From: Mytilus californianus
Lineage: Eukaryota
Assembly: GCF_021869535.1 (NCBI RefSeq)
Contig: NW_026262626.1
Coordinates: 27,218,001 to 27,282,000, forward strand
Length of the DNA stretch: 64,000 bases
Direction of reading: 5' to 3'
Within the stretch, counting starts at the first letter, position 1; the number at the start of each line of letters is the position of its first letter. Made by a program: the position numbers. Positions 1 through 9,000 of this stretch are shown in pieces.

Positions 1-3000
1 TTTACTATACAATTTGTTGACTTAAAACAACACGATGCAACGTGTTAAGCTAAGATGCTCACTTGAAACTACACGGCGTACAGTTGAAATTTTGTAATAT
101 TAAGCTACGATAGCACGATGTTATATCATTATAATGACACAATAGGCTTATTATACAATTTGCTCATTTAAAACTACATAACGTACAGTTGAAAGTACGT
201 GATGTTAAGCTAAGATGGCACGTTGTTATATCATGAGAATGTCACGAAAGGCTTACCACACGAGATGCTCGTTTAAAACTACACGGCGTACAGTTGAAAG
301 TACGTGATGTTGAGCTATGATAGCAATATCTTATGTCATATTAATATCACGATAGGCTTGCCATACAATATGCTCATTTAAAACTACACGACGTACAGAT
401 GAAAGTACGTGTTGTTCAGCTAAGACAGCACGATGTTACATCATTATAATGTCACGACAGGCTTGTTATACAATTTGCTCATTTAAAATTACACCACGTA
501 CAGCTGAAAGTACGTGATGTTAAGCTAAGATGGCACGTTGTTATATCATTAGAATGTCACGATAGGCTTACCATACGATATGCTCATTTAAAACTACATG
601 ACTTTCAGTTGAAACTAGGTGATGTTAATCTAAGATAGCATGTTGTTATATCATTCGAATGTCACGATAGGCTTACCATACAATATGCTCATTTAAAACT
701 GCACAACGTACAGTTGAAAGTATGTGATGTTGAGCTATGATAGCACGATTTTATATCATAATAATATCACGATAGGCTTGCCATACAATATGCTCATTCA
801 AAACTACACGACGTACAGTTGAAAGTACGTGTTGTTGAGCTAAGATAGCACGATGTTATATCATTATGACGTTACGAGAGGCTTATCATACAATGTGTTG
901 ACTTGAAACTACACAATGTAAATTTGAAGTAGTTTGGTCTTGACTTAAAACAGTAAAATGTTAAGCTATAAAAACAGAACGTAAAGTCAAAATAAAACAA
1001 TGATAGGATGACATATACTTGTGCAGAATTGAAGATTTTTGGTGTTGACCTCGAATATAGTACAAATATTAGATCGTTTTATGTTAAATTGAAAGAAAAT
1101 AATGATGCGTAAAACATTACAGAATTATGTGAATTGAAACTGAAATCTATGGAAAAGAATGAGGGACAAATCCCCAGGATTTTTTCTTCTTCATTTGCAA
1201 GTTCGGAGGCAAAATGATATACAAAGAAAGTTTTTCATAAATTCATAAAGCAAAAGAATTACCAATCGCTATATATTACACTTGAATACAGTTTTGCCGT
1301 ATATTTTACATGTTTTGTTTGGATCTTTTTTTATGATTAAAAACCAGACTTTTTTTATGAACAATATTTAAGAAAATATTTATCTATGTTGTGTGTTAAT
1401 ACATACAATATAATATTGTGCTTATAAGACTTATGACTGTGAGGGTAAAATTTTACTCATATAAAATCACATCTATGTAAGAGTTATCGGAGAATTTGTA
1501 TTTACCACTCCCGTTTTCCCCGAAATAAAACATAAGAATCTGGAGTCTTAATCTTAAAAAACAAAGATCAACTGATATGACAAATAATACGCTAAAGCGT
1601 AGGACTGAGAGGGTCAGAGCTATATGAGAATGTGACCCCCAACCCCCGGCCTTGTTAGAGGTATCTGAAAATTTGAATTTTCTTTTCCACGAAATAAAAC
1701 AAAAAGAATTGATTAGGTGGAAGAATCCTACTGCATGGGGCCAACCCAAACATAAAGTATGGTAGATTCTGTTGTATAATTTTCGCTCATACATGAAGTC
1801 TATATGAAACCTAATGAAATTTGACCTAGAGCCTCCAGTCTAAATCGTCGACTTTAAAAAAAAAATACATCATTTACAGCAGTGCCAACCATTTTTCCAG
1901 CACCAAGTAAGATAGTGCCCAGGTTTATGTATATATCCACTCGGAGAATATTTCATTTTTTTAAATTGGTAAAGTCATTAATGGACAATGACCCCTATAA
2001 CTTATAATAATAAGCCAATTAATGATTTTCGTCACTTATTTTCTTGTCCAAATTGATTTTCTTGGTTCTTTGCAGCTTCTCTCTATCTATATGTGTTTTC
2101 AAAGAAAAAGAAAAAAAATCAAAAATCTGTAAAAATTGTTAAAGTCCATGAATTATTTTGGTATTGCTTTGATTAATTTGTAGATTTGTTTTTTTGATGT
2201 CAACAGTTTCTCTCTCGCTCTCTCTCTTATAGTTTTCATGAGTTTGGTCAAAATTAAAATCGGTAGATTTTTTTTTAATTATTTGCCAAAATGTAGTTTA
2301 TTCTTTTTTGAAAAACATAATAAAAAGTTTGGGTCACAGAGCATTTTGCAAGCTACAGGTTATGCAGTATTGTCAGATTTTGTATAAACTATACATGGAA
2401 AACTCAATGTTAGAAAATAAAAATAAAAATTGGGATCACGAGACTCGTTTTCTGTCTACAAAACAAAATAGATAAAGGCCCTACACATTCCATCATTAGA
2501 GACGAAATATGCCAAAGGGATTTCAAACTCATAAGTCGAAAACAGACTGACAATACACCTTATCGCTATTTGTCCGCCATTACTGGACATCACACAAGTT
2601 CCCGTAAAATTTTGACGTCATAATAGAAAATGTCTGACGCCACAATGGAAAAGTGATTGTTGTATGACGTCAAAAGTTCGAGCGGGACAGATTCTCGGGT
2701 CAAGCGGGAATAGCGATAAGGTGTATGCCATGGAAAAAAAGAAAAAAAATAACGACAAAAAATAATGTTATCCGAGTTATCTCCCCTATATGGAAAAGTT
2801 GAAAAACATGCAAAAAACGTTCTGTATTCAAAAACATTTTTTTTTTTAGTTATCCGAGTTATCTACCCTATATGGAAAAGTTGAAAAACATATGCAAAAA
2901 ACGTTCTGTATTCAAAAACAAATAGTCGTTTTAATCAAATAAATCTCATAATTTTCTTCATCAAGATGAAAAGTACTACATATGAATAACATTCCTCTCT

Positions 3001-6000: not shown

Positions 6001-9000
6001 ACAAATTGTATAGTAAACCTTTCGTTTCAATATAGTGGTGTAGCATCGTGTTATCTTAACTTAACATCATGTACTTTCAACTGTGCATCATGGTGTTTTA
6101 AATCAACATATTGCATGATAGACCAATCGTAATATCACAATGATATAACACCGTACTATCTCAGCTCAACATTTATTAATAACAAGTCAGCACCATACAT
6201 TTTAGCTATTCATTTTATTTGTTATCATAGCTATCGAAGTGGACGACTGAGCAGTATACATCTGCAAGCTAACATCATGCAACGTCAACTTCACATCATG
6301 TACTTTAAACCCAACGTTACGTGTGTTTGGCATATCATCACAACATCGTGACTTATCATTATACTTTCACGACTAAAGCACTTGTCATTGCAAGTCAACA
6401 TTGAGCAAATTCAACTTAGCATATTGTAATTTAGAGTAAGTATTTTGATGACTCAATTCAACATCACGCTGTCTTAACTTTACATTTTAAGCTTCAGCAT
6501 AACGTTTTGTAAATCTCTAATATATGACAGCTGAGGCTTTCCATATTCAAACATGTATATTTATTGTAAAGCTACATTTTATGCATTGCAAGGGTTTACT
6601 GACTTGAGCAAAGTTGACAGTTGTACCCTTTGATAAACAAGTGAAAGATAAATGGTGAAGATTTAATTATAACGACCTATGCATATGGTATCAAACATCT
6701 GTGTCTAGATATTCACAGAGAGATATTTTAAAATAGTGCTGTGGCTTATACATAATCAGTTATAGTGGGCTTTGGGATTTGATTTGTAACAATGAAATCA
6801 TTATGCATACTTGTCATTTTGACAAATCTGTTTCAAATGAAAATAAAACAAGTAAAATATTAAAAGACTATTCGTTAATATACATTTTTTTACAACTTTT
6901 ACTGTTTCCTTTTTACAGTATTCTCTATCAATTAAGTTATCTTGTAAGCTAATTAAATGTTTATTTAATTCATTGATGTCACTATTATTACTTATATTAT
7001 TCACACACTGTAAATTAATACTCTTAAATTCATGTGTGTTTTGGATGTGCACTAGTGATTGGTAAATCTGTGGTTTTAATATACGTGACTTAACATCAAG
7101 AATTCCATTATGATGGAATCGATCACATTTGTACACTTCGGTTTCTAAATAGAGGGTGGTAAAAAAAGGGGGGGTCTGCATGTGGTCACTTTTTAGAGTC
7201 CTCTAGTTGCATACGATTTATCATAGTAATACAATAGGCTATTAATAAATATCTTGGGACCAGTTAATTAGTTTATAATTTAAAACAATATCTGGGCTGA
7301 CTTTGAATTAGTCCCGGTTTACTTTTTAATCAAATGCGGGACAAGCACGAGAGAATAAGAGTACCGACACGAGAACGGAAAATAATTAAGGGAAAACACG
7401 AAGCACGCACGTCGAACCAAACACGAGAAAACGAGAAATAAAACATCGAAACACGAAATCACGTGAAATAAAAAGGCCGAAAACGTTGCACGAAATAACC
7501 CTTTACCACCCTCTAAATAGGTCATACTAGATGTTGATGGTCAATTTCGTTTGCTAGGTTAAAGAAATCTTCAACTTGCTCTAATTTGCTTGTGAAGATC
7601 ATAAAACAGTCATCCCTATTGACAGTGTAATTTGATGTTTTCTCTCCATTGGAACTTATCTAAGATTTTAATGAATAGGACAGATAGATGCAGATCTGTG
7701 CACGTTGGTGAAAATATACCACCCATGGGCGCTCCTGTAATGTGTTTGTATAACAGTCCATTTAACTCAAATTCATTGTTTCTAAAAATTAATTTAACAA
7801 ATACAGTTAAATCTATTTTGTTGAGAATCTTTAAAGTATATTCTCCCGTGTGTCAATTAATTCTAATGCATTGATAACAGTTTCTTCTAAATTATCAATG
7901 ATCATATTTGTGTACCTTGACGTACATCATAGGCAATAAGAATGCATTCTTTTTTGACCTTGTGTGACTCTATTTTATTAATGGAATCTATTGATCTTGA
8001 ATGTAAAAGTTATGCCTCTTCAATAATGGTTTTATAATTAGATCAAGTAAGTATCTCTCGCGGGAGAGTTGCATTTATTGATGATTGGTCGGTAACCATA
8101 TCCAGAAATCAACGCCACTTTGCTTATTTGAATATTATACAAAAAAATTTCGGATACGGGTCACGGAAATTATATTGAAATGATAGGGAATTTTGAAAAA
8201 CAAAATGTCTGTTTTAACTTTGATTTAAGTGATAGACAGGTTGCGGGGACAGAAAATACATATACACAACAATATACACCATTTAAACGAAACATAATGA
8301 CTGTCGTTGCAAAAATCAAGGTTCCTGATCATGAGCTATTTAAAAATCGAAGCGAGAGGCTTTTAACATTGCAGTATAAAATACAGGCTAAAATGGCTGA
8401 AACGTCAAATTTGCAAACTTCGTGTTGAAAATTGGCTAACAAGGTCATTACAAAAACAGGTAGCCGGGGTGAAAATTGAATGTCCAAAGAATAAGCAAGT
8501 CCAAACCTTGTAGTCGTTGAACTCTAGGTTCCCACGTAAAGTTAAAAGGGCCCTATTTAAAGAAGAGTAAACTCACGAAAACACGAAAAATTCATTAACT
8601 TCGCGTTCATTGTTTTGATTTTGACAGCCTGACAACTTTACGGAAATATCAGAGTGATTAGAAACAAGGACTCTGTGACGGGCAACTTATAATATCCGTG
8701 TTTTAAAGATTTTAATGATATCAAGCCAGTCCAGTTCAAACTATTATCACGTGGTACAATTCTCATTTACATATTATGAATATTAATTAGCAAAAGTACT
8801 ACTAATTTCTGGCTATGCGAACATTAATGTGTCCTGCTAGCTGACCAGTTCGCAATGCCTCATTACTTATTTCTAGATTAATTTTATGAATTTTTGGAAG
8901 AAGGTACATCTGTCCCTCATGTTTTGAATCATTATTATTCTTTAAGAAATTAAACGTCTGGGAATCTATTTTTTTTCCTCATTGCTTTATATTTAACACT

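What the first reader, a model, noticed from the sequence alone, without database searches (positions are those of the whole stretch)
1..6017. Foldback-like structure: arms over 1.7 kb in inverted orientation around a 2.6-kb spacer
Seen: the two arms are near-identical and even pair unit-specific variants of their internal arrays, while neighbouring units within one arm are far more diverged. The inversion or duplication is therefore younger than the array. No transposase lies in the spacer. Established: long TIRs made of tandem subrepeats characterise Foldback/Galileo, some MULEs and Sola3. Inference: either a large non-autonomous foldback element of unrecognised family or a local inverted duplication, and in both cases a possible cruciform or rearrangement hotspot next to an immune cluster.
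Basis: partly seen in the sequence, partly recalled or inferred. Interest (0 to 1): 0.65.

Follow-up and report, generated by a model that had tools for sequence, protein, structure and literature searches.

The report
Young inverted duplication in mussel DNA
Two copies, each at least 1.7 kb long, of a non-coding stretch carrying an old 105-base tandem array face each other across 2.6 kb in what looks like a mussel genome; this is a real but fairly ordinary structure, and the data at hand cannot say whether it is a one-off duplication or a foldback-type mobile element.

Summary
Window 1-1709 pairs in inverted orientation with 4329-6017: 96.1% over 1717 columns, 37 substitutions and 9 indel events. 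The spacer is 2619 bp. Each arm carries a 105-bp tandem array. Mirror-image units differ by 0-4 bases (mean 2.0), while units within an arm differ by 8-22 (mean 16.3). The inversion is therefore much younger than the array.

The left arm is cut by the window start while still 100% identical, so its outer end and any target-site duplication cannot be seen. None of 119 ORFs in 1-6600 matches a Pfam family, and Rfam finds nothing. No further arm or monomer copy lies in the other 58 kb. No eukaryotic genome collection was available, and three protein-database proxy searches were uninformative.

A 391-bp stretch with no difference (5 of 20000 random placements reach this length) suggests arm-to-arm gene conversion. 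The host is a Mytilus-like mussel, and TLR and C1q genes lie 10-55 kb away.

My best reading is a one-off local inverted duplication (0.47). The main rival is a non-autonomous foldback element built like Tetris (0.30). Cruciform extrusion is unlikely across a 2.6-kb spacer; inversion of the spacer and gene conversion are the realistic consequences.

The parts
1..1709 (+). Left arm of the inverted repeat, cut by the window start, so the true outer end is unknown
   Evidence: Pairs with 6017-4329 at 96.1% over 1717 columns; alignment; difference counts
55..928 (+). Left 105-bp tandem array (units L1-L8), with a shortened unit at 1-54 and a degenerate unit at 895-999
   Evidence: TRF period 105, 8.3 copies, 82% matches; units listed; monomer-profile hits; 21-bp sub-periodicity, 105 = 5 x 21
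929..1709 (+). Left inner domain, not part of the array. It ends in two units of a second repeat family (motif TTCCACGAAATAAAAC at 1516 and 1685). The arm breaks off in the middle of a unit at 1709/1710
751..1141 (+). 391-bp stretch with no difference between the arms (mirror 4884-5274); candidate recent arm-to-arm gene-conversion tract
   Evidence: Longest identical run is 391 bp; 5 of 20000 random placements of the 46 differences reach it
1710..4328 (.). Spacer of 2619 bp, non-coding, a patchwork of repeats
   Evidence: 0 Pfam matches among ORFs of 30 aa or more; internal repeats; sequence read
3040..3365 (.). Small MITE-like piece inside the spacer: 28-nt inverted ends at 3060-3087 / 3337-3364 around a 28-bp tandem repeat (3216-3285) and a G-run
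   Evidence: the label 'MITE-like' is my inference from structure only
3528..3770 (+). Fragment of a dispersed repeat, with further copies at about 23660-23881, 45069-45309 and 48254-48608
   Evidence: blastn 68-80% identity
3900..4354 (+). Tandem duplication of a roughly 225-bp unit (3900-4129 / 4125-4354, 84%). It overlaps the inner 26 bp of the right arm, so the right arm runs on into related sequence where the left arm stops
4329..6017 (-). Right arm of the inverted repeat
5097..5928 (-). Right 105-bp tandem array, unit-for-unit mirror of the left array
   Evidence: TRF; mirror matches with 0-4 mismatches
5929..6511 (-). Outward, progressively degenerate continuation of the right array. 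Its part beyond 6017 has no visible partner only because the window ends
   Evidence: Monomer-profile nhmmer hits at 5962-5867, 6108-6006, 6172-6111 and, weaker, 6323-6269, 6435-6323 and 6511-6458; sequence read

Best explanation
This is a single, local, evolutionarily young inverted duplication: a palindrome with a spacer in non-coding, repeat-rich intergenic DNA of a Mytilus-like mussel.

The history reads as follows. A 105-bp array, itself built from 21-bp sub-repeats, had already diversified to about 15% between units. It had also undergone an internal duplication of a block of 3-4 units. A segment of at least 1.7 kb, holding that array and about 780 bp of adjoining sequence, was then copied once in inverted orientation about 2.6 kb away. 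I infer that the mechanism was a replication or repair template switch; this is not shown.

The right-hand copy with the adjoining spacer looks like the source. It continues seamlessly into further units of the inner repeat family, whereas the left copy stops in the middle of a unit. Since then the arms have diverged by about 2.2% in substitutions plus 9 indels. They have probably exchanged at least one gene-conversion tract, at 751-1141.

The structure encodes nothing. Its expected behaviour is recombination between the arms, meaning gene conversion and possible flipping of the 2.6-kb spacer. Cruciform extrusion and transposition are not expected.
For: Shown:
- The arms are collinear unit for unit with the same unit number. 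There is only one 7-bp indel within the array, and mirror units are 0-4 of 105 bases apart against 8-22 within an arm. This indicates one copying event that post-dates the array.
- Older block duplication inside the array: L2~L5 differ by 8, L3~L7 by 10 and L4~L8 by 11 bases.
- Both array edges decay gradually into degenerate units, inward at 895-999 and outward to about 6511. This fits an array that aged in place.
- No coding capacity or transposase remnant: 0 of 119 ORFs match Pfam, and there are 0 Rfam matches at E <= 1 in 1-6600.
- No other copy of an arm or a monomer in the remaining 58 kb, although other repeat families recur 4-6 times there.
- At the inner junction the right arm runs on into sequence related to the same repeat family, while the left arm is truncated at 1709.
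- A 391-bp stretch with no difference.
- The window is duplication-prone: a TLR paralogue pair at 79% identity and C1q blocks at 74-85%.

Inferred: the template-switch mechanism, and which copy is the source.
Against: - The layout (tandem-repeat domain, inner domain, non-coding middle) equals that of the foldback transposon Tetris, whose inverted repeats reach 1735 bp (PMC4079207, section 10).
- The outer ends are not visible, so a target-site duplication cannot be excluded.
- Absence of other copies was tested only in 58 kb and by three weak protein-database proxies. That says little about a genome of more than a gigabase.
- At the one visible junction there is no microhomology under a simple fold-back model. 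An 8-of-9 direct match near it is at chance level (173 of 2000 random pairs).
- The other duplications in the window are direct and much older, so they are poor precedents.
- The junction asymmetry can also be explained by a later tandem duplication or deletion inside a mobile element.
Confidence: 0.47

Rival explanations
1. This is a non-autonomous foldback-type DNA transposon of an undescribed mussel family. It has long terminal inverted repeats, each made of an outer or flanking part (outside the window), a 105-bp tandem-repeat domain and an inner domain, around a non-coding middle domain. It would be mobilised in trans by a transposase encoded elsewhere (MULE-, P- or Sola-type).
For: - The architecture matches Tetris domain for domain. 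Tetris has a flanking domain, a tandem-repeat outer domain, an inner domain and a non-coding middle, with inverted repeats up to 1735 bp and no ORF (PMC4079207, sections 10 and 17 read). Here the arms are at least 1709 bp, with arrays and a 780-bp inner domain.
- No ORF in the middle, as in non-autonomous foldbacks.
- High arm-to-arm identity with an identical tract fits exchange between arms within one element.
- MULE, P and Sola1-3 transposase lineages exist in bivalves (PMC10294476, passages read).
Against: - No terminus, no target-site duplication and no second copy could be examined.
- No further arm or monomer copies in 58 kb, and no hits for arm ORFs in protein collections.
- Units within an arm are 15% apart, so there has been no recent turnover or homogenisation of the array as might be expected in an active family.
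- The array frays gradually at both edges instead of abutting a defined domain boundary.
Confidence: 0.3
2. This is an assembly artefact. The left arm would be the other haplotype of the right-arm locus, joined in the wrong orientation through shared repeats. The window start may be a contig end.
For: - The arm divergence (2.2% substitutions plus indels up to 13 bp) is within what I recall for allelic divergence in mussels (recalled, not tested).
- The visible junction at 1709/1710 lies just after a motif present five times on both strands, the kind of place where graphs mis-join.
- The repeat touches the window edge.
Against: - There is no N in the window.
- The classic missed-adapter or fold-back read chimeras give no spacer and near-identical arms. 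Here there is a 2619-bp unique spacer, and 21 of the 37 substitutions are transversions.
- No read data were available.
Confidence: 0.08
3. These are two separate insertions, head to head, of the same young mobile element carrying tandem repeats, for example a Helentron-derived HINE like Cg_HINE, pearl or MgE.
For: Short satellite-like arrays in bivalves are typically the central repeats of such elements (PMC7492417, abstract and passages read; PMC11136912, passages read).
Against: - No excess of 12-nt sub-terminal inverted repeats around the array: 7 found against a mean of 7.75 in 20 shuffles.
- No microsatellite or 3' palindrome was recognised.
- The monomer is 105 bp, against 140-180 bp for the most abundant oyster clusters (49% of detected tandem repeats) in that paper.
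- The arms share about 780 bp beyond the array, and the right arm does not end at a clean terminus.
- Identical unit number and order in both copies.
- No third copy in the window.
Confidence: 0.07

Closest known systems
Tetris, a foldback transposon of Drosophila virilis (PMC4079207)
   Same: Long inverted arms (up to 1735 bp there, at least 1709 bp here). Each arm holds a tandem-repeat domain followed by an inner domain. The middle domain is non-coding and of mixed composition, with no transposase.
   Different: Tetris has defined ends with 8-10 bp target-site duplications, several genomic copies and an outer flanking domain shared with the MITE DAIBAM. None of these could be examined here. 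The repeat unit is 220 bp there and 105 bp here, and there is no sequence relation.
Classical foldback and long-TIR elements (Drosophila FB, Galileo of the P superfamily, some MULEs, Sola3); features recalled, not tested
   Same: Kilobase-scale inverted terminal repeats built partly of tandem sub-repeats, and frequent non-autonomous copies.
   Different: Membership rests on transposase homology, the terminal motif and target-site duplication length. No transposase is present and the termini are outside the window.
Helentron non-autonomous elements with central tandem repeats (Cg_HINE of Crassostrea gigas; pearl; MgE of Mytilus galloprovincialis) (PMC7492417)
   Same: A bivalve genome, and a short satellite-like array embedded in non-coding DNA outside heterochromatin-like long arrays.
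   Different: HINEs have 11-12 bp sub-terminal inverted repeats, an adjacent complementary repeat, a microsatellite and a 3' palindrome, and they occur as single units. None of these was detectable above chance here, and the striking feature here is the kilobase-scale inverted pairing.
Segmental palindromes or inverted segmental duplications with arm-to-arm gene conversion (for example primate sex-chromosome palindromes; adjacent inverted duplicates in nematodes); recalled
   Same: Two copies only, inverted, with a short unique spacer. High arm identity with patchy identical tracts, and a location in a duplication-rich gene-family region.
   Different: Those palindromes usually carry genes and are tens of kb to Mb long. 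This one is small and non-coding as far as can be seen.

Membership tests
Foldback-type transposon (Tetris / FB-like) | Long inverted arms at the two ends of the element | tested here: met
   1-1709 against 4329-6017, 96.1%. Whether they are terminal is unknown.
Foldback-type transposon (Tetris / FB-like) | Arms contain tandem sub-repeats | tested here: met
   105-bp arrays at 55-928 and 5097-5928, with 21-bp sub-periodicity
Foldback-type transposon (Tetris / FB-like) | Defined termini flanked by a short target-site duplication (8-10 bp in Tetris) | not testable with these tools
   The left arm runs off the window start while still identical to the right arm. No upstream sequence is available.
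Foldback-type transposon (Tetris / FB-like) | Several dispersed copies with different flanks or middles | tested here: inconclusive
   0 further arm or monomer copies in the other 58 kb. Protein-collection proxies: no hit or uninformative hits. No eukaryotic genome collection was open.
Foldback-type transposon (Tetris / FB-like) | Middle domain non-coding, or encoding a transposase | tested here: met
   Non-coding: 0 of 119 ORFs match Pfam
Galileo/P, MULE or Sola3 long-TIR transposons | Homology to the superfamily transposase, or its terminal motif and target-site duplication length | tested here: not met
   No transposase-like ORF in 1-6600. Terminal motifs and target-site duplications cannot be tested because the end lies outside the window.
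Helentron non-autonomous element (HINE: Cg_HINE, pearl, MgE) | Central tandem repeats | tested here: met
   The unit is 105 bp, outside the 140-180 bp range of the most abundant oyster clusters in PMC7492417.
Helentron non-autonomous element (HINE: Cg_HINE, pearl, MgE) | 11-12 bp sub-terminal inverted repeats in both flanks, with an adjacent complementary repeat, a microsatellite and a 3' palindrome | tested here: inconclusive
   12-mers with at most 1 mismatch between 4329-5060 and 6100-7000: 7, against a mean of 7.75 in 20 shuffles. The element ends are unknown, so the search space may be wrong.
One-off inverted segmental duplication | Exactly two collinear copies in inverted orientation, sharing copy-specific variants | tested here: met
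   'Exactly two' holds only within the 64-kb window.
One-off inverted segmental duplication | Breakpoint junctions with a template-switch or end-joining signature (microhomology or small insertions) | tested here: inconclusive
   The inner junction at 1709/1710 shows no microhomology under a simple fold-back model. The nearby 8-of-9 match is at chance level, 173 of 2000. The second junction is outside the window.

The most novel reading that the evidence does not exclude
This could be the first foldback-type transposon family described in a bivalve. It would be a Tetris-like non-autonomous element whose inverted arms, at least 1.7 kb long, carry a 105-bp (5 x 21) tandem-repeat domain. Such an element could seed satellite arrays and inversions in mussel genomes and, if transcribed through, could give a long hairpin RNA. 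My searches of the held library for 'foldback' with 'bivalve' (12 papers) and for 'foldback' with 'mollusc' and 'transposon' (7 papers) listed no title or abstract start describing such an element. In the papers I opened, the word 'foldback' occurs once in each and, where the passage was shown, sits in the reference to the Tetris paper. The bivalve transposon survey PMC10294476 does not contain the word.
Probability: 0.27. Interest if true: 0.45.

Novelty: new member of a known kind. Interest (0 to 1): 0.25.

Why it matters
As it stands the finding matters little. It is a small non-coding inverted duplication in transposon-rich DNA, about 10 kb from the nearest (broken) Toll-like receptor copy.

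It is a clean, datable example of the order of events in a bivalve tandem array:
1. Unit diversification.
2. Block duplication inside the array.
3. Inverted duplication.
4. Gene conversion between the arms.

If genome-wide searches showed it to be mobile, it would add foldback elements to the bivalve transposon repertoire. It would also give a second route, besides Helentron-derived elements, by which satellite-like arrays spread in these genomes.

Recombination between the arms could make the 2.6-kb spacer an inversion polymorphism. I see no reason to expect an effect on the immune genes.

Tried and rejected
- **Rfam.** 0 matches over the whole window at gathering scores and 0 in 1-6600 at E <= 1. 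The units are therefore not hammerhead or retrozyme repeats or SINE-type RNA genes. There are 0 tRNAs.
- **Proxy searches for other genomic copies through protein collections.** The arm ORF 875-1078(-) gave no candidate and the array ORF 450-635(+) gave none. ORF 1456-1839(-) gave 2 hits. Both hits are translated tandem repeats of unknown origin. Each matched stretch is only 36-38% identical, and the single-comparison E is 2e-4. I judge them uninformative, because the library E-value is inflated by 16 repeated stretches. Non-coding DNA is rarely in protein sets, so these blanks are weak.
- **HINE-type sub-terminal inverted repeats around the array.** At chance level. The repeat finder found only three short inverted pairs in 4300-7000.
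- **Microhomology at the inner junction.** None.
- **Continuation of arm homology deeper in the spacer, as a later insertion would leave.** None found with word size 7.
- **Bacterial-type promoter and terminator scan of 1-200.** Not applicable to a eukaryote. It only drew my eye to a 6-bp palindrome inside the unit.
- **Literature.** No paper in the held library combines 'Mytilus' with 'inverted duplication' (0 papers). The 7 papers holding 'satellitome' and 'Mytilus' (listing only) concern other species.
- **Not possible.** Upstream sequence, a genome-wide search of the arm, long-read support and the orthologous locus in other mussels. The genome collection holds only bacteria and archaea, so I did not use it.
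- **Not joined.** The two tyrosine-recombinase-like ORFs (10891-11604 and 12701-13498) were scanned separately.
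Full report
**What is there.** The window has no N and about 32% G+C throughout. blastn of the window against itself pairs 1-1709 with 6017-4329 at 96.1% over 1717 columns. The repeat finder gives the best-preserved core as 89-1146 / 4879-5936, 1058 nt at 98%. In the MAFFT alignment I count 37 substitutions (16 transitions, 21 transversions) and 9 indel events covering 35 columns. The spacer is 1710-4328, 2619 bp. The left arm starts at window base 1 with no difference in its first 75 bases. 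The repeat therefore certainly continues upstream, and 1.7 kb is a lower bound.

**The arrays.** TRF finds a 105-bp period at 55-928 (8.3 copies) and at 5097-5928 (7.9 copies), with 82% matches between units.
- I cut the array in register and compared units. Every left unit L2-L9 has its mirror partner as best match in the right arm, with 0-4 mismatches; the next-best matches have 7-45.
- Mirror pairs L2-L8/R2-R8 differ by 1, 2, 1, 4, 2, 4 and 0 bases (mean 2.0). The 21 within-arm pairs differ by 8-22 bases (mean 16.3). L1 is left out of that count because a 7-bp deletion in its partner shifts the register.
- The closest within-arm pairs (L2~L5 at 8, L3~L7 at 10, L4~L8 at 11) show an older duplication of a block of 3-4 units.
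- The unit has a 21-bp sub-periodicity, 105 = 5 x 21.
- A profile of the units run with nhmmer shows the array fraying inward (895-999) and outward to about 6511. It finds no unit anywhere else in the 64 kb.

The order of events is therefore unit diversification, then block duplication, then inverted duplication.

**Differences along the arms.** Substitutions per 100 bases are 1.83 in the array, 0.45 in 929-1150, 1.33 in 1151-1450 and 6.18 in 1451-1709. In the last segment they cluster around a C-run. The longest stretch without any difference is 391 bp (751-1141, mirror 4884-5274). Only 5 of 20000 random placements of the 46 differences give a run that long. I read this as a probable arm-to-arm gene-conversion tract. 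Local variation in mutation rate is the alternative.

**The inner boundary.** A second repeat family, marked by TTCCACGAAATAAAAC, occurs at 1516 and 1685 (+) and at 4112, 4337 and 4491 (-). That is 5 of the 8 matches in the window at up to 3 mismatches, against 1.85 expected. On the right, the arm end lies inside a unit that is tandemly duplicated (3900-4129 / 4125-4354, 84%), and the sequence carries on as that family does. On the left, the arm stops in the middle of a unit at 1709/1710. No continuation of the homology is found deeper in the spacer. The right copy plus spacer thus looks like the older context and the left copy like a truncated copy, although a later deletion or tandem duplication would explain this as well. 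The junction shows no microhomology under a simple fold-back model. A nearby 8-of-9 match is at chance level, 173 of 2000 random pairs.

**Coding and RNA content.** None of 119 stop-to-stop ORFs of 30 aa or more in 1-6600 matches Pfam at E <= 0.01 (an earlier partial scan was). Rfam gives nothing at E <= 1 in 1-6600 or at gathering scores in the whole window. There are no tRNAs. The spacer is a patchwork:
- a small piece with 28-nt inverted ends and a 28-bp tandem repeat (3040-3365);
- a 72-bp direct repeat (2767-2836 / 2849-2920);
- a fragment (3528-3770) of a dispersed repeat with three other copies in the window.

**Context.** An intact Toll-like receptor ORF (34138-36357; LRR and TIR domains) is 89% identical to a Mytilus edulis protein, and all its close relatives are from Mytilus. 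I therefore take the window to be from a Mytilus-like mussel, not from a human.
- A broken paralogue lies at 16386-18727, 79% identical in DNA.
- C1q-domain genes lie at 51818-52216 and 58050-58448, inside direct duplicated blocks of 74-85% identity.
- Between the repeat and these genes lie a reverse-transcriptase zinc-finger tail (10211-10660) and two ORFs with weak tyrosine-recombinase matches (10891-11604 and 12701-13498; below Pfam's cut-offs). I scanned these two separately and did not join them.
- The inverted repeat is the youngest duplication in the window and the only large inverted one.

**What it is.** Four readings fit.
1. *A one-off local inverted duplication.* This is my preferred reading (0.47). 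It needs nothing that was not seen: two copies only, strict collinearity, an aged array with frayed edges, no mobility features, and a source-like right copy.
2. *A non-autonomous foldback transposon* (0.30). The domain plan is that of Tetris: a flanking domain, a tandem-repeat domain, an inner domain and a non-coding middle, with inverted repeats up to 1735 bp (PMC4079207, sections 10 and 17 read). Bivalves carry MULE, P and Sola transposase lineages (PMC10294476, passages read). However, termini, target-site duplication and copy number could not be examined.
3. *A haplotype mis-join* (0.08). The unique 2.6-kb spacer and the substitution spectrum argue against the usual read chimeras, but no reads were available.
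4. *Two head-to-head insertions of a Helentron-type element carrying tandem repeats* (0.07). Such elements carry most short arrays in oysters (PMC7492417, abstract and passages read). Their sub-terminal repeats are not detectable above chance here, 7 against 7.75, and the arms share 780 bp beyond the array without a clean end.

**How it behaves.** This is inference from established knowledge, recalled and not tested here. Cruciform extrusion or hairpin formation during replication falls off steeply with spacer length and arm divergence, so a 2.6-kb spacer and 96% arms make it a poor cruciform former. Homologous exchange between inverted arms gives gene conversion and, with crossing-over, inversion of the spacer. 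The 391-bp identical tract is consistent with the former.

**What stayed unchecked.**
- Upstream sequence, genome-wide copy number, long-read support and the orthologous locus in other mussels.
- Three proxy searches in protein collections gave no usable signal.
- Literature searches found no described bivalve foldback element. For some searches I saw listings only, for passages, and the word is absent from PMC10294476.
- The library listed no Mytilus satellitome paper.
- Supplementary tables were closed and might list this unit.

**Verdict.** This is an ordinary kind of structure, of modest interest unless shown to be mobile.

Noticed in passing
window 34138-36357 (+) and 16386-18727 (+): There is an intact single-exon Toll-like receptor ORF (LRR, LRRNT and TIR domains; 89% identical to a Mytilus edulis protein). 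About 17 kb upstream lies a paralogue 79% identical in DNA, whose reading frame is broken into pieces (ORFs 16679-17044 and 17536-17922). It is probably a pseudogene.
   Followed up: partly
window 51094-53800 and 55880-60018 (-): Direct duplicated blocks (74-85% identity) each carry a C1q-domain exon (51818-52216 and 58050-58448, Pfam E about 4e-22). A third, degenerate piece at 56553-56987 has no Pfam match.
   Followed up: partly
window 10891-11604 and 12701-13498 (+); 10211-10660 (+): Two ORFs have weak matches to phage-integrase-type tyrosine recombinase domains (E about 0.004, below Pfam cut-offs). They may be a Crypton-like element or a domesticated relative. Just upstream lies the zinc-binding tail of a reverse transcriptase (zf-RVT, E = 2.4e-6). 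The two ORFs were scanned separately and not joined.
   Followed up: no
window 14509-14893, 42318-42645, 47231-47603, 55096-55488, 62775-63059, 50388-50763: A dispersed repeat of about 380 bp is present at least six times on both strands at 70-94% identity. It looks like a SINE- or MITE-like family and is unrelated to the inverted repeat.
   Followed up: no
window 23647-24011, 45069-45309, 48254-48608 and spacer 3528-3770: This is another dispersed repeat (68-80% identity). At 23961-24335 (-) and 48252-48629 (-) it adjoins ORFs of 124-125 aa without a Pfam match. It is probably the tail of a retroelement.
   Followed up: no
window 181-200 and the same place in most 105-bp units: Each well-preserved unit holds a 6-bp palindrome, ACGTAC-8 nt-GTACGT. 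It is intact in L2, L3, L4, L5 and L8 and degraded in L6 and L7. Such dyads are common in satellite units, and its meaning is unknown.
   Followed up: no
window 1617-1631 and 3047-3061 (+); 4405-4419 (-): A 15-base string is shared exactly between the inner arm domain and the MITE-like piece in the spacer (3 matches at up to 2 mismatches, 0.2 expected), next to C-runs or G-runs in both. This hints that the inner repeat family and that piece derive from one mobile family.
   Followed up: partly
window 13708-13872: A 165-bp perfect-register palindrome (86% self-complementary) lies just after the recombinase-like ORF.
   Followed up: no
window 7619-7852 (-) and 8805-8978 (-): These short ORFs have motifs that, from memory, resemble reverse-transcriptase blocks. 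Pfam gave no match at E <= 0.01. They are probably a decayed retroelement between the right arm and the recombinase-like ORFs.
   Followed up: partly
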